The notes under the pieces were generated by a model, which ran no database searches, was not told where the DNA came from, and saw only the letters and a program-made list of their open reading frames with translations. The position numbers and the translations under genes are program-made. From IMG/VR virus record IMGVR_UViG_3300034072_000375, positions 1-64,000 of that record: a DNA stretch of 64,000 bases. One strand, 5' to 3'. The DNA is from a virus. Positions 14,958-30,783 of this stretch are shown here, one piece after another. The stretch's first letter is position 1. The number at the start of each line of letters is the position of its first letter.

Positions 14958-14985
14958 ATACTAGCATTAAAATCTACTTTGTCAA
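14958..14985 (-). promoter_or_regulatory. Sigma70-type promoter, leftward
   Basis: TTGACA-16 nt-TAGTAT with extended TG on the minus strand. Confidence 0.55.
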
Positions 14986-15216
14986 GCACTTGTTTGAAAT
15001 CTGCACTACTTATCAACTTATGTAGTGAATTTGCAACAATTGTTAAAGCACAATCTTCTTCTCAAGTACGCTCTTGTCAGTGTCCTTCCATTTGATTGAC
15101 ATAGGCACAGGACAATCAATCTTGAATCTCTCCCTGAACTTGTCTGCCATTGTCAAGACTAGGAGTTCTAGGTGCTCTTTCGCTACAACGAAGCTATCAT
15201 GCACACAGAGGATAGT

Positions 15217-16119
15217 CTACCCCCAAGTTGTTAGCACTGTCAACAACTCTTTCATAACGTCTTTTCTGACTTTTAAATTATTCTTAGGGAGGACTTTCTT
15301 TTTAATACTTACTTTTCGTCTAGGTCGGGATGCTACAGCTTTCACCTCGTTTTTGGCTTTCTGCCAGTAGTTCTTTACTTTCAGCATGAAGTTTTCATCA
15401 GAGATAAGGTGCGAATATACACTCTTAAATTCTTCTGTAGGAAGAATCGTACTCGATTGACGAAATTTCTTTTCTTTTGAGCCTTTGCCAATAAAATTAA
15501 TAAGAAGGTCCGCCTCTTCCAGCACATCAATTGCAGCATTAATTCTCAAGACGTTTGTATTTCTTCTGAGGTTTAGATGAGCACCTTTGGCCCGCGAGTA
15601 AGCAATGCACGCATCCTCTGTCAATGAGAACAGTAAGTTAGTAACGATAACACCCAACTCTAGACTATACTTAGGCCCAAATCTTCGCATACTGTTCCTC
15701 ACTTCTTGCGGTATTTTAATGTCATAAGATAGGTATCTCTGTACGCTTGCTATGGGTTTGTGCTCATTACTTGTTTCAGGTTTATTTTTATCTTTACAAT
15801 CGCAAGAGTATTCTATATTAGTTTCAGGTGGCTCAAACTCCCTCCAATCAGTAGTATTCCAGTTTCCTTTCCCATGATTGCACACGTTACACAAGACTTG
15901 TAGATTAGAAAGTTCAAGTGCGAGAGACGTATCAACTTTTCTAGGAATAATATGATCAACATGTATCTTAACATCGTTGCTAGGGAGAGGAACAGCACCA
16001 CAGCACTGACAACGTTTACCATATTTCAAGATAGCTTCCATTCTTACTTTTCTCCATTCAAACGTATCAAGAAAAGCATCTGATTTGATGTACGCATCGG
16101 TATACTTCATTTTAGTCAT
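15217..16119 (-). CDS. HNH endonuclease fused to an uncharacterised C-terminal domain; frame continues past the TAG to 15043
   Basis: EWRKVR...RCQCCG...HVDHIIP...SNLQVLCNVCNHGKG. An in-frame 57-codon extension after the TAG contains LCVHDSFVV. Confidence 0.8.
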   Translation of the reverse strand: MTKMKYTDAYIKSDAFLDTFEWRKVRMEAILKYGKRCQCCGAVPLPSNDVKIHVDHIIPRKVDTSLALELSNLQVLCNVCNHGKGNWNTTDWREFEPPETNIEYSCDCKDKNKPETSNEHKPIASVQRYLSYDIKIPQEVRNSMRRFGPKYSLELGVIVTNLLFSLTEDACIAYSRAKGAHLNLRRNTNVLRINAAIDVLEEADLLINFIGKGSKEKKFRQSSTILPTEEFKSVYSHLISDENFMLKVKNYWQKAKNEVKAVASRPRRKVSIKKKVLPKNNLKVRKDVMKELLTVLTTWG

Positions 16120-16152
16120 CCTTATTTTAATTATTTTGAAAGACGATTAGAC

Positions 16153-16190
16153 AAAAGAAAACCCCTACAAGCCGTTAAGCTCATAGGGGT
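16153..16190 (-). terminator. Intrinsic terminator, leftward
   Basis: ACCCCTATGAGC/GCTTGTAGGGGT stem followed by TTTCTTTT on the minus strand. Confidence 0.8.
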
Positions 16191-16269
16191 AGTGCAATGG
16201 TCTAATTGTAGTGTATTCTAAGTTATACTCTTAGTTATACTTTAGTATGTTATTAACTTTATGCTCTTT

Positions 16270-16710
16270 GATTGAAAGCAGGCAAGGTTGAGCAACTTTA
16301 GAGGTGAAAAGAAAGTACACGGTGTACCCTTTCACTTCAGGTTGCTACAGCCCTAACTTGCTTTCATTCTGTCATGCTCCACGACTCGAAGGGCAGGTTA
16401 TCTCGCAGTTATAACTAAAGAATCAGGGAGACAAGTCTCATGCCGTTTCTAAAGCTGTATACTTCCGTCTGCGAAATCTAGAGAGTGCTGTTGATCACTG
16501 CTTCTCTTGGTCTAGATGTATGGTTACGGTCGGGTCATTACGAGTTGCGCAACGCCTGCTAAGTTCGCTAACCTATCAAAGCTGGTTAGCTCCTACCCTG
16601 TGTATCACATTGGGTGTCGTGGGAGAGAAGACTTGGTGAATCTCATGTGTGATAGCAACTCCATGCTACCCTACCCGCAGGTTCCGAATTTGGCTATGTT
16701 GCTATTTCTA
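16270..16710. ncRNA. Putative large structured non-coding RNA/ssDNA element
   Basis: No credible ORF. Many nested stems (TGAAAGCA/TGCTTTCA, AGCAAC/GTTGCT, GAGGTGAAA/TTTCACTTC, TCGCAG/CTGCGA, GCTAACC/GGTTAGC, TATCACA/TGTGATA, GAGTTGC/GCAACTC). Flanked by a leftward promoter and terminator. Confidence 0.55.
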
Positions 16711-16723
16711 GCACATGATTGTA

Positions 16724-16752
16724 ATTTTACCACAGTCTTTCTGGAATTGCAA
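16724..16752 (-). promoter_or_regulatory. Sigma70-type promoter firing leftward into the structured region
   Basis: TTGCAA-17 nt-TAAAAT with extended TG on the minus strand. Confidence 0.65.
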
Positions 16753-16803
16753 GCGAAATCTTCAGAGATTGAACTGTGCCAAACAAACAACACAAATCCT
16801 TTG

Positions 16804-16833
16804 TTGACTTCTTTCACAAGTTCATGCTACACT
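16804..16833 (+). promoter_or_regulatory. Sigma70-type promoter, rightward
   Basis: TTGACT-18 nt-TACACT with extended TG. Confidence 0.6.
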
Positions 16834-16861
16834 AAGTTTTTCAACACACAAGGAGTGAAAC

Positions 16862-17065
16862 ATGACTGACAAAGAATACGTGATCTACGCCTGCAAGACG
16901 TTCAAGTTTACCCTCCTCAAGCCAACCAAAGAATGCAAGGACATTCTCGTTATGCAGGACATTAAAGGTTTCATGAAGTGCATTGCTGAAGGTACAACAT
17001 GGAAGAACATTCGTACTCAACTGAAGGATTGGCAAGAGGCGCGTTTTCCTGAAAGGGCTTTCTGA
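16862..17065 (+). CDS. Hypothetical protein
   Basis: SD AAGGAG. First gene of the rightward block. Confidence 0.7.
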   Translation: MTDKEYVIYACKTFKFTLLKPTKECKDILVMQDIKGFMKCIAEGTTWKNIRTQLKDWQEARFPERAF

Positions 17066-17722
17066 TGAAAAAGTACTTTATGCGTGTTGGCTTAAAGCAA
17101 CAAGACGATTCAAAAACAACTTGGGTTATTTACTCACCGAATAGGCACATCTTTTGCACAGTAGTCGGCAGGCAAAAGGCTACAAAACTCAGGAACTATT
17201 TAAACGAAGAGTTTCTTGACGCTTGCCTGTAGCGCAGTTTCTGCGAAACCCCTTGACGCCCTCCTGAACTTCGTGCATAATTCAACAAATCGCAACAAAC
17301 AACTTAAAGGAATCACTATGAAGCTCTACGCAATCACTCGGATCACTGAAGACCACTACACATGGATGGATGTGTTTGGTGTCACACCTAATAAGAAAGT
17401 AGCAGACAAGAAAGTACAAGAGCTGCGTGAGGCTGGTCGTTACGGTGAATGGGTTGTCCAAGAATTTGAGAGTAGCGATGTGAAAAACATCACAGGGTTG
17501 GAACAATAAATGACCCTATCCCAAGCCCTACCTAGTCGCATCACCCTTGCTGATGCTCTCGAATTCTCCCGTACTCTTGCAAAGCACAACCCCTTTGTTA
17601 GAATGCAACCAGAAGAGCAAGAACTAGCCAACCAAGCTGGGCCTTTGCTTAGTCGGATGGCTAACACGGAGGAGTTGGAATTTCTGATGAAGAATGAACG
17701 CTGGAATGCGTTGTTTTGAAAG

Positions 17723-18434: not shown

Positions 18435-19652
18435 ATGAAGAAACCGATTAGCTTTACTTGGGAAGTACGATCTGCTGTCCCCATTATTACCTTGTGGAAC
18501 TACAGGGGCGAAAAAATTCATTCTTTTGCTGTCAACAACCCTCCGAAAAGTGCAGCTAAGAATCTCCTCGGAAATAACAAACGCTATCTCAAAGAAGAAG
18601 CTAAGAAGTTTAATGAACAACACGGTATCCGTGCTACTAATGTAGTGAGGGTTGCTCGTGGTATTGTTTATAACGAAGTCTACAAGCAGTTTCCCGAGTG
18701 GTACAGACTTTGTCGCACAACGTCATGGACACCTATGGGGCAAAGGTTTGAGTACCTAGAAACTGAAGAGCTTCTACAGCAGTGTAGAAAGGACGGTATT
18801 GCTAATATTATTCCTATTGTTGCTTATTTCAAGAAATCCCCACAGGAACTAAAGAAAACTCTCGGGGAAACTACGTGGAAGAAGTTATGCAAGAACAGTT
18901 ACAGCCGCAACCGATTATTGTTCATGAAGAGTAATGCCCGATTGACGCCTGTAGATTGGAATGTTGTGCCCAGTACAATTCTAAAAAGTAGGACGCATTT
19001 CACGCCTGAAGTCTATTCATGGCTTATTCGTACTCAAGATATTCCTTTGAAGAATTACTCCAAGGACTATAATATTCAAAGAGAAGCTAGTATCTATATT
19101 GATACCCAACGAATGTGCATCGGTGCTGGAGAGACTTTCAACCCTAACTGGAGTAAACGCAGAATGAAGGAAGAGCATGACCGTCTTTCTCGGATGCAAC
19201 AAGAGATTGCTAACCGCCGACAAGCAGAGCGCAATGCTGAATACGCTAAACTCTTGAAGGTTGACTTCAGGGAGTTACACAAAGGTTTAGAGGTTATGGA
19301 GTTCGATTCTGGTGTTGTAGCTGTTCCATTGGTGAACATGCAGCAAGTTCAAGAGGAAGGTTCCAAGATGCATCATTGCGTAGGTAGTTATGCTAGAATG
19401 TGTGCAAAGGGTGAATATCTTGTATGGCACTTGACCAAAGGCAGTGTTGAGACTACACTTGGAATTGCAGTACAGTGCGAGAATTACGTCATTGCAATGA
19501 GTAAAGACAAGTACAACCTTCAACAGCACTATGGATTCTGTAATGCAGCAGTAGAGGATGAAGATTTGAAGGCTGCTGCTAAGAGTGTTGTTGAGATGCT
19601 TAACAAAAAGAACAAAGAAAAAGTTATTGACAGAGAGTTAGAATCTGCTTAA
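18435..19652 (+). CDS. PcfJ-domain protein
   Basis: MKEEHDRL...QEEGSKMHHCVGSY...TLGI...QHYGFCN. Confidence 0.8.
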   Translation: MKKPISFTWEVRSAVPIITLWNYRGEKIHSFAVNNPPKSAAKNLLGNNKRYLKEEAKKFNEQHGIRATNVVRVARGIVYNEVYKQFPEWYRLCRTTSWTPMGQRFEYLETEELLQQCRKDGIANIIPIVAYFKKSPQELKKTLGETTWKKLCKNSYSRNRLLFMKSNARLTPVDWNVVPSTILKSRTHFTPEVYSWLIRTQDIPLKNYSKDYNIQREASIYIDTQRMCIGAGETFNPNWSKRRMKEEHDRLSRMQQEIANRRQAERNAEYAKLLKVDFRELHKGLEVMEFDSGVVAVPLVNMQQVQEEGSKMHHCVGSYARMCAKGEYLVWHLTKGSVETTLGIAVQCENYVIAMSKDKYNLQQHYGFCNAAVEDEDLKAAAKSVVEMLNKKNKEKVIDRELESA

Positions 19653-25873: not shown

Positions 25874-27598
25874 TTGAAAATAGCAAATTTTGTTAAACAC
25901 ACATCCTGTCCAGACTGCGGCAGTAGTGACGGTTTGGCTGTGTATGACGATTCATCATCGCATTGCTTCGTATGTACAAAAACCATTCCTAGCGAAGAAT
26001 ATAAACAGGAACGAAAAAGTTATTCTAAGAATAAAAAAGTCAAAGTAAAAGGAAAGGATGAAATGACAGAAAAAGTAAAGGCTTCAGTTACACCAGAAGA
26101 AACAGAATCCCTCAAAGGGAAAACAGGTCTAACTGCTGGTGGATATCGAGGTATTCGTGATGATGTACTGAAAGTGTTCGGAGTACGCACTGAACTAGAT
26201 GCGTCAGACGAGGTACTCGCACGTTACTATCCCTGTACAACCGAAGGAGAACTCACAGGATGGAAGCGCAGGGGTCATCCTAAGAACTTTGGAGGAAGCA
26301 TCGGTAACACAGGAAACTCTTGCGATCTGTTCGGTCAATTCCGTTTCAAGAACGGTGGTAAAGTATGTCTGATTGTCGGCGGGGAAGAAGACCAACTCGC
26401 TGCTTATCAGATGTTGAAGGATTATTACGTTTCTAAAGGTTGGGACTTTGAACCCGTGGTGGTATCACCAACAGTAGGAGAAACGGGCTGTGCAAAGCAG
26501 ATTGCCAATCAGTACTCTTGGTTCGATGGTTACTCCAAGATCGTGATTGGTATGGATACGGATGATGCTGGTAAGGCCGCAATTGAAAAGATTATTGCCG
26601 TTCTTCCAAAGGGGAAGACTTTCATTGCTAACTGGTCGTTGAAAGACCCTAATGAAATGCTTTTGAAAGGTAAAGAAAAGCAGTTTATCAGTGATTTCTA
26701 TAATGCTAAAGCGTATGTTCCGGTTGGAATAATGGCTTCTTCTGATCTTTATGATAAAATCCTGCAACAGGCATCTGTAGAAAAGACACCGTTTCCACCT
26801 TGGATGGGTAAACTCAATGAGATGTTTGTGGGTGGTATGCCCGGCAATGCTATCATTAACATAGCAGCAGATACAGGTCTAGGAAAAACAACCCTTGTGA
26901 ACTCTATGGTTGAGTATTGGATTTTTAACTCTCCGCATACGGTAGGTGTAGTATCGATGGAACTTGATTCTTCTCAGTACGGAGAAGCCCTTCTGGGTCA
27001 ATATATTCATCGCAAGATTTCTTTGATTGCTGACATGGACGAGCGTTTGCGCTTTTTGAAATCAGATGAGATTAAAGGTAAAGCGAATCAGTTATTTCTG
27101 AAAGAAGATGGTTCACCGCGCTTTTATCTTCTTGATAACAGAGATGGTTCTGTAGAAGACATTCAAGCTGCGATTGAAGAACTTGTAGTTGGTTGTGGAG
27201 TAAAGATTATCATTCTTGATCCGTTGCAAGATGTACTCGATGGTCTATCAAACGAAGAACAGGCTCTTTTCATGAAATGGGCAAAGGGGCTTATTAAATC
27301 TCACGGAACAACACTGTGCCTGATTAATCATATGAGGAAGACCCCTGCCGGTCAGTCTGGGGGTGATCATGAAAGCAACATTATGGGGTCAAGCACTATT
27401 ATTAAATCAGCTAGTGCTAATATCTTATTGAAAAGGGATAAAATGTCAGACGACCCGATTTTACGCAACACCACAGAGATTTCGGTCACAAAGAATAGAC
27501 TATACGGTATTACTGGCCCAGCAGGTGCTGTTTACTACGACAACCAAACAGCGAGACTGCATAATTTAGATGATTGGTTAAACGAAAACGCAGGATAA
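25874..27598 (+). CDS. DNA primase-helicase (T7 gp4-like)
   Basis: Zn finger CPDCGSSDG...CFVC, TOPRIM (GGEED, DTDDAG, KDPNE), Walker A ADTGLGKTT, IILDP, H(M)RK and KNRLYG.TG. Confidence 0.93.
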   Translation: MKIANFVKHTSCPDCGSSDGLAVYDDSSSHCFVCTKTIPSEEYKQERKSYSKNKKVKVKGKDEMTEKVKASVTPEETESLKGKTGLTAGGYRGIRDDVLKVFGVRTELDASDEVLARYYPCTTEGELTGWKRRGHPKNFGGSIGNTGNSCDLFGQFRFKNGGKVCLIVGGEEDQLAAYQMLKDYYVSKGWDFEPVVVSPTVGETGCAKQIANQYSWFDGYSKIVIGMDTDDAGKAAIEKIIAVLPKGKTFIANWSLKDPNEMLLKGKEKQFISDFYNAKAYVPVGIMASSDLYDKILQQASVEKTPFPPWMGKLNEMFVGGMPGNAIINIAADTGLGKTTLVNSMVEYWIFNSPHTVGVVSMELDSSQYGEALLGQYIHRKISLIADMDERLRFLKSDEIKGKANQLFLKEDGSPRFYLLDNRDGSVEDIQAAIEELVVGCGVKIIILDPLQDVLDGLSNEEQALFMKWAKGLIKSHGTTLCLINHMRKTPAGQSGGDHESNIMGSSTIIKSASANILLKRDKMSDDPILRNTTEISVTKNRLYGITGPAGAVYYDNQTARLHNLDDWLNENAG

Positions 27599-27624: not shown

Positions 27625-28566
27625 ATGAAACTTATAGACTTAACAGGTAAGAGATTTGAAAGACTTACAGCGGTAAGGGTGTCGGGTCATAAACCCGTTA
27701 AGTGGGAATGTGTCTGCGATTGTGGCAATGTAGTAAATGTTTCCGCAGGTAATCTCACAAAGAAAACAAATTCAACACGTTCGTGCGGTTGCTTGTGGGC
27801 TTCTGATATTAAAATTGAAGTGGGACAAGTCAGAGATTCAAACTCGGGTAAGTTCGAGGTTGTTGAATTACTTGGAGGAGAAAAAGTCCTTTGTAGATTC
27901 GAAGACGGAAATACTGTTGTTGCACAAAAAGGAAACATCCGAATTGGCAACGTATGGAATCCGTATTATCCGGCCATTCATGGGATGGGATTTGTTGGAG
28001 TAGGAGATTACTCAACGAAAATTAAGGCTCATCATTATTGGTCTAAAATGATGCAGCGTGCGTATTGTCCTATTTATAAAAAAGAACATCCAACGTATGA
28101 AGATGTTACCGTGAGTCCTGATTGGTTAAATTATCAAATATTTGCTGAGTGGTGTACCAAAAGAAAGCAGTACGGAAACATGGGGTACAATCTTGATAAA
28201 GATATCATCGTCAGAGGAAACAAAATTTACTCAGAAGATCACTGTACACTTGTACCTCAAAGAATTAATAAGTTACTGATAACTAAAACAAACGTGCATT
28301 CAGATACGCCTCTTGGTGTAAAAAGAATTAAGGATAAATTTAACAGGGTGATAGGCTACACTGCGACTTGTCATGATAATGGAAAAGAACTATACTTCGG
28401 CTACTATTCTAATCCAGCAGATGCTTTCTTTGCTTACAAAGCAGGAAAAGAAGCCTTGATTAAGAGGGTTGCAGATGAATACAAGCACATGTTAGATGAC
28501 AAAGTTTACGATGCTTTGTTAAAGTATGTAGTCTTTGACACAAATGGAATTGTTCAAATAGATTAA
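27625..28566 (+). CDS. Free-standing homing endonuclease (HNH/AP2-type)
   Basis: DLTGKRFERLT..WECVCDCG..SCGC N-terminus, WSKMMQRAY, LDKDI..YSEDHC.LVP..IN and PLGV. Confidence 0.8.
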   Translation: MKLIDLTGKRFERLTAVRVSGHKPVKWECVCDCGNVVNVSAGNLTKKTNSTRSCGCLWASDIKIEVGQVRDSNSGKFEVVELLGGEKVLCRFEDGNTVVAQKGNIRIGNVWNPYYPAIHGMGFVGVGDYSTKIKAHHYWSKMMQRAYCPIYKKEHPTYEDVTVSPDWLNYQIFAEWCTKRKQYGNMGYNLDKDIIVRGNKIYSEDHCTLVPQRINKLLITKTNVHSDTPLGVKRIKDKFNRVIGYTATCHDNGKELYFGYYSNPADAFFAYKAGKEALIKRVADEYKHMLDDKVYDALLKYVVFDTNGIVQID

Positions 28567-28584: not shown

Positions 28585-30783
28585 ATGAAATTAGAAAGTC
28601 TTTTTGTTTTTGACATCGAAACATACAAAGAAGTATTCACCTTCAGCGTTGTTCGCGCAGACGGAAAGTTCAAGAAGACTTTCTCTTGTTCTAAGTTTAA
28701 GAATGAAATTGAAGGAATCTTCAAGTGCTTGGACTATCTGCACGACAACGACTATTATCTAGTTGGGTTCAACTCCAATCAATTTGACTGGCCTATTATT
28801 CAACAACTCATAGACAAGCGATCAAAGTTACCAAAATCAGGTAGAGCAATTGCTTCTTATGTTTTTGAACTTGCACAAAAACAGATTGATTCTTTTCGCG
28901 GAGAGGGGTTTGGTAATACGGTAAAGTACGAAGATCAGTACGTAAAGCAAATTGACTTGTTCAAAGTTCATCACTTTGACAACCGCAATCGCATGACAAG
29001 CCTGAAGTTGATTGAATTCAATCTGCGCATGGACAACCTAGAAGACTTACCGTATGACATTCATTCGGAACTTACGGAAGAAATGATTGCAGATATCATC
29101 TTCTACAACGAGCATGATGTTGAGGCAACTCGATTGTTTCTGCATCAGTCGATCCCTCAGATTGAATTTCGTTTTCAGCTTACTGAAAAGTACGGAAAGA
29201 GTTTTCTAAATCACAATGACGGTAAGATTGGTAAAGATTACTTTCAGATGGAACTTGAAAACAGAGGTGTAAAACTTCATACGTTCAAGAACGGTAAAAA
29301 AGTACTCAAACAAACACCACGATCAAAGATTAACATTGGTGAGTGCTTGTTTAGTTATTATGACTTCAAGCGACCAGAGTGCATTGCAGTGAAGGAATGG
29401 TTTAGTGAACAAACTATTTCAGAAACCAAAGGTGTATTCTCTGACATTGAAGAACATCGTCTAGGTGAAGTTGCTCAGTACGCAGAGATGACAGTAAAGC
29501 GAAAGAAGTTCAAGGGAGTTCCTTCTGAAAAAGATCGTGAAGTCTTTCTAAAGGAACATCCTTGTGGATGGATTGAAGAAGAAGAACTGAAAGCTACAGA
29601 GTACTTGTTTGACAGTGAAGGTAATCACGTAACGGAGTACCCTTTGGATTCTGAAGGCTCACCTGATTTCACAAAGAAACCGAAAAAGGTTCGTGTACCG
29701 AAGAAATCCTACTGGGGTTGCTATCGAGTAGCTGAGACATTGAACATTCTTTTGGATGGTCTTCGCGTTGACTTTGGTGTAGGAGGTATTCATGCTAGCT
29801 TGTCTGAAAAGCTTGTAAGGGAAACTAGCAAATACAAGATTCTCGACGCCGATGTAAGTTCAATGTACCCTAACATCGCAATCAGCAATCGTGTGTACCC
29901 TGAACATCTAGGAGAGGAGTTTTGTGACATTTACTTGGATGTGTACGAACAACGTAAGTCCTATGCGAAAGGTACACCTGAAAATGCAATGCTAAAGCTT
30001 GCATTGAACTCTGTTTACGGGGACTCAAATAACCAATACAGCGTGTTCTATGATCCGATGTACACAATGAAGATTACTGTCAATGGTCAATTGTCGTTGT
30101 TGATGCTTGCGGAAAGACTTCTGGAAATTGAAGGACTGAAACTTGTTCAGTTGAACACAGATGGTCTAACTGTCGCCCTACCAAGAGACAAGGAAGATGA
30201 GTACTCTGCTGTGTGCAAGAAATGGGAATCAGATGTTGGTTTGGAACTTGAGTTTGTAGAATACGAAAGAATGATGATTCGTGATGTAAACTCTTACTTA
30301 GCAATCTACAAGAAAGGTGGTGTAAAGCGCAAGGGGGCTTATCAGTACGAAGGTCTTGGCTGGCACCAGAATCAGTCTTCGTTGGTCATCCCGATGGCTG
30401 CTGAAGCTGCAATGGTGAAAGGTGAAGAAATTGAGTCATTTGTCCGAGAGCACTTTGCTAAAGGTAATAAGTTCGATTTCATGCTTCGCACCAAAGTTGA
30501 CAAGAGTTCCAAACTCGTGTTAGTATCCGATGAAGGTGTTGATGTTGAGCAACAGAGAATCTGCCGATACTATCCGTCTAAGAACGGTGGTAAGCTAGTG
30601 AAATTGATGAAAGCACTTCCTGATTCAGAAGATAAGTCAGATCGTAGGTTGTCAATTGACTCGCAATGGAAAGTCAAAACATGCAACAATATGAAAGATT
30701 TCGACGGTGATGTTGACTTTGATTACTATGTGCAGGAAGCCGAAAAGCTTGTAATTCGTAAAGTGACGGAAAAACCACAATGA
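28585..30783 (+). CDS. DNA polymerase, family B-like, with 3'-5' exonuclease
   Basis: Exo I FDIETY, Exo II GFN..FD, Exo III YNEHDV. Polymerase motifs DVSSMYP, KLALNSVYG and NTDG. Confidence 0.9.
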   Translation: MKLESLFVFDIETYKEVFTFSVVRADGKFKKTFSCSKFKNEIEGIFKCLDYLHDNDYYLVGFNSNQFDWPIIQQLIDKRSKLPKSGRAIASYVFELAQKQIDSFRGEGFGNTVKYEDQYVKQIDLFKVHHFDNRNRMTSLKLIEFNLRMDNLEDLPYDIHSELTEEMIADIIFYNEHDVEATRLFLHQSIPQIEFRFQLTEKYGKSFLNHNDGKIGKDYFQMELENRGVKLHTFKNGKKVLKQTPRSKINIGECLFSYYDFKRPECIAVKEWFSEQTISETKGVFSDIEEHRLGEVAQYAEMTVKRKKFKGVPSEKDREVFLKEHPCGWIEEEELKATEYLFDSEGNHVTEYPLDSEGSPDFTKKPKKVRVPKKSYWGCYRVAETLNILLDGLRVDFGVGGIHASLSEKLVRETSKYKILDADVSSMYPNIAISNRVYPEHLGEEFCDIYLDVYEQRKSYAKGTPENAMLKLALNSVYGDSNNQYSVFYDPMYTMKITVNGQLSLLMLAERLLEIEGLKLVQLNTDGLTVALPRDKEDEYSAVCKKWESDVGLELEFVEYERMMIRDVNSYLAIYKKGGVKRKGAYQYEGLGWHQNQSSLVIPMAAEAAMVKGEEIESFVREHFAKGNKFDFMLRTKVDKSSKLVLVSDEGVDVEQQRICRYYPSKNGGKLVKLMKALPDSEDKSDRRLSIDSQWKVKTCNNMKDFDGDVDFDYYVQEAEKLVIRKVTEKPQ

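What the first reader, a model, noticed from the sequence alone, without database searches (positions are those of the whole stretch)
15043..16752. Large structured non-coding element coupled to an HNH gene carrying a polymerase-like remnant at the transcription divergence point
Seen in sequence: 16150-16750 has no credible ORF but is bracketed by a leftward sigma70 promoter (16724-16752) and a terminator (16153-16190), defining a unit of about 560 nt. It is packed with nested stems, including a roughly 95-nt hairpin at 16273-16366. The segment GCAAC at 16655 can pair either with GAGTTGC (16542) or with GTTGCTAT (16698), a switch-like arrangement. The G-T pairs in the longest stem favour folding of the + strand, which is antisense to the promoter-defined RNA. 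Tandem AGTTATACT repeats sit at about 16221-16241. Directly downstream is an HNH nuclease fused to a helical domain and, beyond a TAG, an LCVHDSFVV motif. Established: HD(S) is motif C of family-A DNA polymerases, T7 RNA polymerase and the related TV-Pol family, and HNH nucleases paired with large RNAs are known (HEARO/OMEGA). Inference: this is the best candidate for an undescribed system here, either an RNA-associated nicking/priming replication origin or an HNH-ncRNA complex.
Basis: partly seen in the sequence, partly recalled or inferred. Interest (0 to 1): 0.82.

Follow-up and report, generated by a model that had tools for sequence, protein, structure and literature searches.

The report
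Mobile HNH cassette replacing a polymerase-like gene
A selfish HNH nuclease gene, travelling with its own promoter and an unusually well-conserved 560-base non-coding stretch, has overwritten most of a small polymerase-like gene in this wastewater/freshwater phage; the nuclease part is ordinary phage biology, and the role of the non-coding stretch is unknown.

Summary
The features exist, but the reading changes. A close relative (L082, about 90% identical in the flanks) carries an intact 414-aa gene (phrog_4756) at this locus. Its predicted fold is a compact family-A/T7-like polymerase. In the window, 15217-16774 is a 1.56-kb cassette that replaces that gene's promoter and first ~355 codons. 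The LCVHDSFVV ORF is the gene's left-over 3' end.

The cassette encodes a conserved stand-alone 297-aa protein. It joins an HNH nuclease to a DNA-binding domain homologous to the polymerase's own N-terminal domain.

The 560-nt unit is non-coding and has no Rfam match. An extended -10 promoter and a strong terminator 40 nt before the HNH start bracket it. It diverges only 0.15-0.46% between copies, against 1.6-2.5% for the HNH gene and up to 8% for the remnant. Only one ~100-nt hairpin and the terminator fold better than shuffled sequence. The "switch" and the strand call are not supported.

There is no evidence for a HEARO-like RNA-nuclease complex or an origin.

Best reading: a free-standing homing-endonuclease cassette whose leader and terminator throttle a promoterless nuclease, as with T4 mobE. 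The extreme conservation of the leader stays unexplained. Another first-stage read of this same DNA had flagged the stretch.

The parts
15043..15216 (-). Left-over 3' end (57 codons plus stop) of a compact family-A-like polymerase gene (phrog_4756). It holds motif C (VHDSF) and the C-terminus. It belongs to the flank, not the cassette.
   Evidence: About 90% nt identity to L082 6164-6329, the end of an intact 414-aa gene. It matches profile positions 348-414. The frame is intact in 4 copies, and 14 nt differences give only 2 aa changes.
15217..16110 (-). HNH-wH gene (297 aa from the MKY start). The stop TAG at 15219-15217 sits at the left edge of the cassette.
   Evidence: Pfam HNH. Homologues of 297-298 aa at 95/79/76/52/50% identity all end ...TVLTTW[RGK]. 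The upstream ATG at 16119 is absent in L084 and L085. Of 34 variable sites, 23 are at third codon positions.
15862..16011 (-). HNH nuclease motif region (aa 37-86 of the 300-aa reading).
   Evidence: PF01844 at E 9.4e-9. phrog_144 at E 3e-18. PDB 5h0m HNH endonuclease at E 1.4e-6.
15415..15738 (-). DNA-binding (winged-helix-like) domain, homologous to the N-terminal domain of the displaced polymerase family.
   Evidence: BLASTP gives 37% identity, E 6e-24, aa 128-300 against aa 5-177 of the L082 protein. It matches profile positions 8-148. This domain is the most divergent part among the HNH-wH homologues, 52-55% against 87-98% for HNH.
16150..16190 (-). Intrinsic terminator (13-bp stem, loop 4, then UUUUCUUUUGU), 40 nt upstream of the HNH start codon.
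   Evidence: -20 kcal/mol, z -4.8.
16217..16246 (.). Short tandem repeat (12-nt unit, 2.6 copies, containing AGTTATAC) in the AT-rich 3' part of the unit. An AGTTATAACT palindrome lies at 16407-16416.
16265..16372 (.). Long imperfect hairpin or palindrome, about 40 pairs.
   Evidence: -39.1 kcal/mol on -, -45.0 on +; z -5.1 and -5.7; pair composition is the same on both strands.
16120..16775 (-). Non-coding part of the cassette. The predicted transcript of ~565 nt runs from about 16717 to about 16152. It is very strongly conserved.
   Evidence: 3 variable sites in 656 nt among 3 copies, and none in 16420-16775. Unitigs from 4 further studies show 1-7 differences per 560-854 nt. No Rfam, Pfam or PHROG match.
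16724..16752 (-). Cassette promoter, sigma-70 type with an extended -10.
   Evidence: It lies 22 nt inside the right cassette edge.
16774..16775 (.). Right edge of the cassette. Similarity to the cassette-free relative resumes here.
   Evidence: Window 16775-16866 matches L082 4914-4825. Unitigs of 4 studies all end at 16773. P0128 and P0129 diverge from the window at this point.

Best explanation
Window 15217-16774 is a 1.56-kb mobile cassette built around a free-standing HNH homing-endonuclease-type gene.

Shown by comparison: in some members of a population of otherwise ~90% identical phages, the cassette has replaced the promoter and first ~355 codons of a non-essential, compact family-A-like polymerase gene. 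The last 57 codons remain as the in-frame LCVHDSFVV remnant.

The nuclease consists of an HNH domain fused to a DNA-binding domain that is a diverged homologue of the polymerase's own N-terminal domain.

Inferred: this domain directs cleavage or nicking to the cassette-free allele. Repair from a cassette-bearing genome then copies the cassette in.

The 560-nt unit is the cassette's own non-coding transcription unit. A strong extended -10 promoter starts an RNA that mostly ends at a strong terminator 40 nt before the HNH start. HNH has no promoter of its own. It would therefore be made only by terminator read-through, which keeps nuclease levels low. This is inferred from the sequence layout and from the T4 mobE precedent.

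The unit is conserved far more strongly than that role needs. It probably has a further sequence-specific role, as RNA or as DNA, that I could not identify.
For: Replacement:
- Flanks match L082 at 88-93%. Window 15216-16774 has no counterpart there, and L082 holds an intact 414-aa gene instead.
- That gene folds as a family-A/T7-like polymerase. It belongs to a family of more than 215 members.
- The window has no second copy of it. It does have its own primase/helicase and PolA.

The HNH-wH protein is a conserved stand-alone family. All members end at the same residue, it is under purifying selection, and no longer fused forms exist.

Mobility signature:
- The same cassette (at most 2.5% divergent) sits next to remnant alleles that differ by up to 8%.
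- It occurs in at least 3 different right-hand contexts.
- It is absent from 30 IMG/VR loci with the intact gene and from 5 whole relatives.
- Summed contig depth over the cassette is lower than over the flanks in the two deepest runs (X12, X15), a weak hint of presence/absence polymorphism.

Layout: promoter, terminator and no other leftward promoter before HNH.

Precedent: mobE is promoterless, and a terminator limits its expression (PMC2790892).

Conservation of the unit.
Against: - No cleavage data exist and the target site is unknown.
- The cassette destroys a gene rather than sitting between genes, which is unusual for free-standing homing endonucleases.
- A 560-nt leader is far longer than a terminator-based throttle needs.
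- No antiterminator or RBS-sequestering pairing was found.
- Transcription of the unit is unproven. RNA-library contigs cover the whole phage region without enrichment over the unit and could be DNA carry-over.
- All fetched copies of the unit are nearly identical, so co-occurrence with HNH amounts to one observation. No covariation test was possible.
Confidence: 0.5

Rival explanations
1. The 560-nt unit is a stand-alone, trans-acting non-coding RNA of an undescribed class. It is co-mobilised with the HNH gene and acts either as a partner of the HNH-wH protein or on a host or phage target.
For: It has its own promoter and terminator. GC is raised to 0.45-0.50 against about 0.40. It diverges 5-15 times less than the neighbouring HNH gene and about 17 times less than that gene's third codon positions. 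It has one significant long hairpin. It is non-coding. It is present in 20 runs from 11 studies, including RNA libraries.
Against: Most of the unit, including its most conserved 350 nt, does not fold better than shuffles. No covariation data exist. It is not enriched in RNA libraries relative to flanking genes. The nuclease carries a protein DNA-binding domain, so it has no evident need for an RNA. No Rfam relative exists.
Confidence: 0.2
2. The unit has no function of its own. It is recently acquired DNA hitch-hiking in a cassette that is sweeping through the phage population. Its low diversity reflects recent common ancestry or gene-conversion tracts, not selection.
For: All copies come from one closely related phage population. 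Homing produces co-conversion of adjacent DNA (PMC2790892). Flank mosaicism shows frequent recombination.
Against: The HNH gene in the same cassette has 5-15 times more differences. A sweep would have to cover exactly the non-coding part and stop at the start codon. The same pattern appears in contigs from four further studies.
Confidence: 0.15
3. The unit is a replication origin module. Either a promoter-driven R-loop or primer transcript forms, or the HNH-wH protein nicks at an origin. This would substitute for the lost polymerase/primase-like initiator.
For: The displaced gene resembles the minimal family-A polymerases that have been proposed or shown to act as primases (PMC2579912, PMC7581432). 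The nuclease keeps that protein's DNA-binding domain type. The layout is promoter, ~560 nt, long hairpin, then an AT-rich repeat region. The locus lies at the divergence point of transcription and at the cumulative GC-skew minimum.
Against: No test supports it. GC skew follows transcription direction here. No DnaA boxes are present. A strong terminator ends the transcript. The phage has its own primase/helicase and PolA, and relatives manage without the unit.
Confidence: 0.1
4. It is a decayed group I (or group II) intron with an intron-encoded HNH, once inserted just upstream of motif C of the polymerase gene.
For: HNH genes in group I introns of phage polymerase genes are known (PMC3428280). 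The ORF's stop abuts the motif-C coding sequence in frame. The last 28 residues of the ORF are unusually conserved.
Against: No Rfam intron model matches at E up to 10. There is no upstream exon, since the unit abuts the divergent promoter region. The ORF's C-terminal half is homologous to the polymerase N-terminal domain, which an intron ORF would not explain.
Confidence: 0.03
5. It is a HEARO/IscB-type (OMEGA) RNA-guided nuclease system.
For: Only the co-location of an HNH gene and a long non-coding stretch.
Against: No RuvC or PLMP domain; Pfam finds HNH only. No HEARO or other Rfam match. The protein has its own DNA-binding domain. A terminator separates the RNA unit from the gene.
Confidence: 0.02

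Closest known systems
Free-standing HNH homing endonucleases of T4-like phages, e.g. MobE (PMC2790892, PMC2988022)
   Same: HNH nuclease gene with presence/absence polymorphism between close relatives. It sits next to or in a nucleotide-metabolism or replication gene. It has no promoter of its own, and an intrinsic terminator limits expression. The cassette is more uniform than its flanks.
   Different: This cassette replaces most of the target gene instead of sitting between genes. It carries its own promoter and a 560-nt conserved non-coding leader. Its DNA-binding domain is a homologue of the displaced protein's own N-terminal domain. Cleavage and homing have not been tested.
TV-Pol and CcPol-type minimal family-A polymerases/primases of mobile elements (PMC2579912, PMC7581432, bioRxiv 10.1101/2022.12.02.518924)
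   Same: The displaced gene (phrog_4756) is about 414 aa. It has a family-A/T7-like palm and fingers, with conserved Asp in EVDF and VHDSF and an RxxxK motif. An extra N-terminal globular domain is present. It is encoded by phages.
   Different: Membership by sequence was not established: no Pfam hit. No D5-like helicase or SSB partner was examined. In the window only 57 codons of the gene remain.
Promoter-early stem-loop (PeSL) regulatory cassettes of T4-type phages (PMC2839356)
   Same: Module exchange occurs at conserved early-promoter sequences. The cassette's right edge lies in a promoter-bearing intergenic sequence, and in other genomes it is joined to a different early-promoter region.
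   Different: PeSLs are short promoter-plus-terminator units. Here promoter and terminator are 530 nt apart, with conserved sequence between them.
HEARO / IscB omega-RNA
   Same: An HNH-containing protein sits next to a long non-coding region.
   Different: No RuvC domain, no Rfam match, and the RNA unit is terminated before the gene. It is not a member.

Membership tests
Free-standing homing endonuclease gene (HNH class) | Encodes an HNH-family nuclease domain | tested here: met
   PF01844 at E 9.4e-9, aa 37-86. phrog_144. PDB 5h0m.
Free-standing homing endonuclease gene (HNH class) | Present or absent at the same locus in otherwise closely related genomes | tested here: met
   Window against L082 and L090. 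Lower summed contig depth over the cassette than over the flanks in the two deepest runs is a weak hint.
Free-standing homing endonuclease gene (HNH class) | Cassette more uniform than its flanks and found in different flank alleles | tested here: met
   HNH 1.6-2.5% and unit 0.15-0.46% against remnant up to 8%. Three right-hand contexts.
Free-standing homing endonuclease gene (HNH class) | Not inside an intron or intein | tested here: met
   No intron model matches. No upstream exon.
Free-standing homing endonuclease gene (HNH class) | Site-specific cleavage or nicking of the cassette-free allele, and super-Mendelian inheritance | not testable with these tools
   Needs enzyme assays and phage crosses.
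HEARO / IscB (OMEGA) | RuvC domain split by an HNH insertion, plus PLMP domain | tested here: not met
   Pfam finds HNH only. The rest of the protein aligns to the polymerase N-terminal domain.
HEARO / IscB (OMEGA) | Adjacent RNA matching the HEARO/omega-RNA model | tested here: not met
   No match at E up to 10 in Rfam 15.
Group I intron with intron-encoded HNH | Ribozyme core detectable, and flanking exons of one gene on both sides | tested here: not met
   No Rfam hit. Upstream of the unit lies the divergent promoter region, not an exon.
Type III toxin-antitoxin (ToxIN-like) | Tandem array of ~30-40-nt RNA repeats, a terminator, then a toxin gene | tested here: not met
   Only 2.6 copies of a 12-nt unit. 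The terminator-before-gene layout is shared.
Family-A / T7-like polymerase superfamily (for the displaced gene) | Palm and fingers fold with motif A Asp, RxxxK, and motif C HD | tested here: met
   AF2 pLDDT 90.3. Foldseek probability 1.0 to Pol I, apPOL and Pol theta. VIA Z 14-15 over ~240-258 residues, and mitochondrial RNAP Z 14.1. Invariant D228, R266, K270, H363, D364.
TV-Pol / CcPol primase-polymerases (for the displaced gene) | Sequence membership, linkage to a D5-like helicase or an SSB partner, and primase activity | not tested
   No Pfam model hit. Neighbourhoods were not analysed. Activity is not testable here.

The most novel reading that the evidence does not exclude
The 560-nt unit is a new class of phage non-coding RNA, or a dual RNA/DNA element, that is carried by and needed for a homing-endonuclease cassette. 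It might partner the HNH-wH protein, or compensate for the polymerase-like gene that the cassette destroys (for example as a primer or origin transcript). If so, a selfish nuclease would carry the means to make its own gene-destroying insertion tolerable.
Probability: 0.2. Interest if true: 0.75.

Novelty: new variant of a known kind. Interest (0 to 1): 0.45.

Why it matters
Homing endonucleases normally avoid damage by sitting between genes or inside self-splicing introns. This one appears to have overwritten a conserved polymerase-like gene and reuses that protein's type of DNA-binding domain for its own nuclease.

It also carries a long non-coding stretch that is held almost invariant across samples from at least six studies. 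That combination is unusual. It gives a tractable case of how selfish nucleases remodel phage replication-associated genes.

The comparison also shows that phrog_4756, annotated only as 'hypothetical' in more than 160 cultured Rheinheimera, Vibrio, Aeromonas and Klebsiella phage records, is a compact family-A-like polymerase.

If the non-coding unit proves to be a functional RNA, it would be a new phage RNA class that already has wide environmental sampling.

Tried and rejected
- Rfam at E up to 1 (4 kb) and up to 10 (700 nt): only noise. ARAGORN found no tRNA or tmRNA in the region.
- blastn of the unit against cultured phages and plasmids at E up to 5: only 25-40-nt chance hits.
- nhmmer against 80 loci with related HNH N-domains and 30 loci with the intact polymerase gene: nothing.
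- The whole records of 5 relatives: only terminator-like scraps.
- Exact 20- and 23-mers from the unit in IMG/VR: none.
- Protein-coding remnant tests:
  - The polymerase-family profile hits no frame inside the unit.
  - Stop-to-stop frames have no Pfam or PHROG match.
  - The 117-aa + strand ORF finds only the same DNA in other contexts among 1.8 billion representatives. Its codon score is 0.09 against 0.38 +/- 0.11 for real genes.
- Antiterminator pairing: not significant.
- DnaA boxes: none in the unit.
- PADLOC: only generic HNH similarity.
- AlphaFold of the HNH-wH protein from 7 sequences failed (pLDDT 42) and was not used.
- A raw MFE scan upstream of the intact gene in relatives showed no shared hairpin.
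- RNA-library contigs cover the whole region evenly, so they say nothing about a discrete transcript. One contig joint, 16067 to 16724, has only 34 nt on one side and was not interpreted.
I therefore could not fetch DNA around the 50-79% identical HNH-wH homologues, which is the key material for a covariation test.
- Scans of genome contigs and IMG/VR with the HNH-wH alignment found no further copies.
Full report
**What is in the sequence**

Between 16120 and 16775 no frame is credibly coding.
- Stop-to-stop frames have no Pfam or PHROG match.
- The only long frame is 117 aa on the + strand and runs across the cassette edge. Its codon-usage score is 0.09, against 0.38 +/- 0.11 for this phage's genes.
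- Among 1.8 billion representative proteins it finds only the same DNA called in two other contigs.

The consensus scan finds a leftward promoter at 16752-16724 (TTGCAA-17-TAAAAT with an extended -10 TG). It also finds a leftward terminator at 16190-16161, with a 13-bp stem and a T-run.

Folding of the whole unit gives z -3.5 on the - strand and -3.25 on the + strand. Local folds show that this comes from two structures:
- a ~100-nt hairpin at 16265-16372, z -5.1 on - and -5.7 on +;
- the terminator, z -4.8.

Four other segments give z -0.4 to -1.2.

The hairpin has 4 G-U pairs on the + strand and 3 on the - strand, so it gives no strand call. The proposed GCAAC switch is a 5-nt complementarity. 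A direct test for an antiterminator partner of the terminator arm was not significant: 86 of 300 shuffles did as well. Rfam gives nothing at E up to 10.

**What the locus is**

The neighbouring 340-aa gene led to a close relative, L082 (IMG/VR, 71 kb). Its flanks match the window at 88-93%. Window 15216-16774 has no counterpart there.

In that place L082 has a 190-nt intergenic region and an intact 414-aa gene. The last 57 codons of that gene are the window's LCVHDSFVV ORF.

The gene belongs to phrog_4756, function unknown. It has more than 215 homologues of about 414 aa. Copies occur in 167 cultured phage records from Rheinheimera, Vibrio, Aeromonas and Klebsiella, listed as 'hypothetical protein' wherever a feature is annotated under the match.

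An AlphaFold model from 41 sequences has pLDDT 90.3.
- Every Foldseek hit listed at E below 0.001 (49 of 55) is a family-A DNA polymerase, with probability 0.93-1.0.
- VIA-align gives Z 14-15 over about 240-258 residues for model residues ~126-410.
- Yeast mitochondrial (T7-like) RNA polymerase reaches Z 14.1.
- Invariant residues include D228 in EVDF, R266 and K270 (RxxxK), and H363-D364 in VHDSF.

The 'polymerase-like remnant' is therefore real. By architecture the nearest described proteins are the minimal TV-Pol and CcPol-type enzymes (PMC2579912, PMC7581432). I did not establish membership.

**The HNH protein**

Residues 128-300 are 37% identical (E 6e-24) to residues 5-177 of the L082 polymerase-like protein. 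A family profile aligns positions 8-148 to the HNH ORF. It then aligns positions 348-414 to 'KELLTVLTTWG*TILCVHDSF...' in the same frame.

The ORF, its TAG and the remnant are thus colinear with a polymerase gene whose core (about positions 150-347) is missing. That colinearity explains why the TAG is in frame.

The 297-aa architecture is not an accident of this genome. Six homologues at 95, 79, 76, 52, 50 and 51% identity all end at the same ...TVLTTW[R/G/K]. No longer fused form exists.

Domain conservation is uneven among these homologues:
- HNH domain, 87-98%;
- last 28 residues, 82-96%;
- DNA-binding domain, 52-55% in the most distant homologues.

The HNH domain is of the common phage type: phrog_144, PDB 5h0m. 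The 80 best of the 187 IMG/VR relatives match that domain only, and none of them has the non-coding unit.

**Evidence that this is a mobile cassette**

Three metagenome contigs (L083-L085) carry window 14979-16833 at 97-98% identity, in flanks that are mosaic and more divergent.

Pairwise divergence by part:
- non-coding unit, 0.15-0.46%;
- HNH gene, 1.6-2.5%, with 23 of 34 variable sites at third codon positions;
- remnant, up to 8%.

The remnant stays open in all four copies, and 14 nt differences cause only 2 aa changes. Insertion of one cassette into different intact alleles best explains that.

On the right, the cassette is joined to at least three different sequences.

Unitigs from four further studies all stop at 16773, which is the point where similarity to the cassette-free L082 resumes. 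They carry 1-7 differences per 560-854 nt, while neighbouring genes in the same runs differ by 5-10%.

The unit occurs in 20 runs from 11 studies of wastewater, freshwater and subsurface samples. It is absent from 30 loci with the intact gene and from five whole relatives.

The phage has its own primase/helicase, PolA and a second HNH gene between them. The lost gene is therefore plausibly dispensable. In Vibrio phage helene 12B3 an annotated homing endonuclease sits directly after the homologous gene.

**How it most likely works**

Shown: the replacement, the protein architecture, the layout promoter-560 nt-terminator-(40 nt)-HNH, and the conservation pattern.

Inferred:
- The nuclease cuts or nicks the cassette-free allele, and recombinational repair copies the cassette in.
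- HNH, which lacks a promoter of its own, is made only by terminator read-through. T4 mobE is likewise promoterless and limited by an intrinsic terminator (PMC2790892).
- The right edge lies in an early-promoter sequence. This recalls promoter-cassette-mediated module shuffling (PMC2839356).

**What remains unexplained**

The 560-nt stretch is held nearly invariant. There are no variable sites at all in 16420-16775, and most of it is not detectably structured.

I rank the rivals as follows:
- a stand-alone RNA of a new class, 0.2;
- hitch-hiking DNA in a recent sweep, 0.15;
- an origin or primer module, 0.1;
- a decayed intron, 0.03;
- a HEARO-like system, 0.02.

RNA-library contigs hold the unit but cover the whole phage region without enrichment. 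They do not show transcription.

**Limits**

All copies of the unit that I could fetch are near-identical. The AlphaFold model of HNH-wH failed, with pLDDT 42.

**Verdict**

It is not supported for an RNA-nuclease complex or an origin.

The locus is a new variant of a known kind, a free-standing HNH homing-endonuclease cassette, with one real oddity: the strongly conserved long non-coding unit.

Noticed in passing
L082:5092-6336 (+); family alignment A2: phrog_4756 is annotated only as hypothetical in 167 cultured phage records (Rheinheimera, Vibrio, Aeromonas, Klebsiella). It folds confidently as a compact (~414 aa) family-A/T7-like polymerase with an N-terminal winged-helix-like domain. It may be an unrecognised phage primase or RNA polymerase.
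   Followed up: partly
window 27625-28566 (+): A second free-standing HNH endonuclease gene (phrog_953/374) is wedged between the primase/helicase (25874-27598) and the DNA polymerase (28585-30783). This is another likely homing endonuclease in the replication module.
   Followed up: no
window 15041-15049 against L082 6330-6573: About 244 nt are missing from the window just downstream of the polymerase remnant. They cover most of a 117-aa ORF that is intact in L082 (6352-6705). The region left of the cassette has a second deletion.
   Followed up: partly
proteins P0127, P0137, P0144 (200-204 aa): Some relatives of the HNH-wH protein are called without the HNH domain and start at MKYSC... They may be degenerating copies, split genes or contig-edge artefacts.
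   Followed up: no
window 16775-16866 and 17240-17290: Early-promoter-bearing intergenic sequences recur as junctions. In other genomes the cassette's right edge is joined directly to the sequence that lies at about 17250 in the window, so the two small genes at 16862-17232 are skipped. This suggests promoter-mediated module shuffling.
   Followed up: partly
window 18435-19652 (+): A 405-aa protein with a PcfJ-like domain (PF14284, E 1.7e-16) is encoded in the early rightward operon.
   Followed up: no
L127 (Vibrio phage helene 12B3, NC_021067.1 19088-21198): An annotated homing endonuclease gene starts exactly at the stop of the phrog_4756 homologue. The family seems to attract homing endonucleases in unrelated phages as well.
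   Followed up: no
window 16067 to 16724 (run X15): One metatranscriptome contig joins 16067 to 16724 and skips 656 nt, which is the whole non-coding unit plus the first codons of HNH. Only 34 nt lie on one side, so it may be a variant without the unit or an assembly artefact.
   Followed up: no
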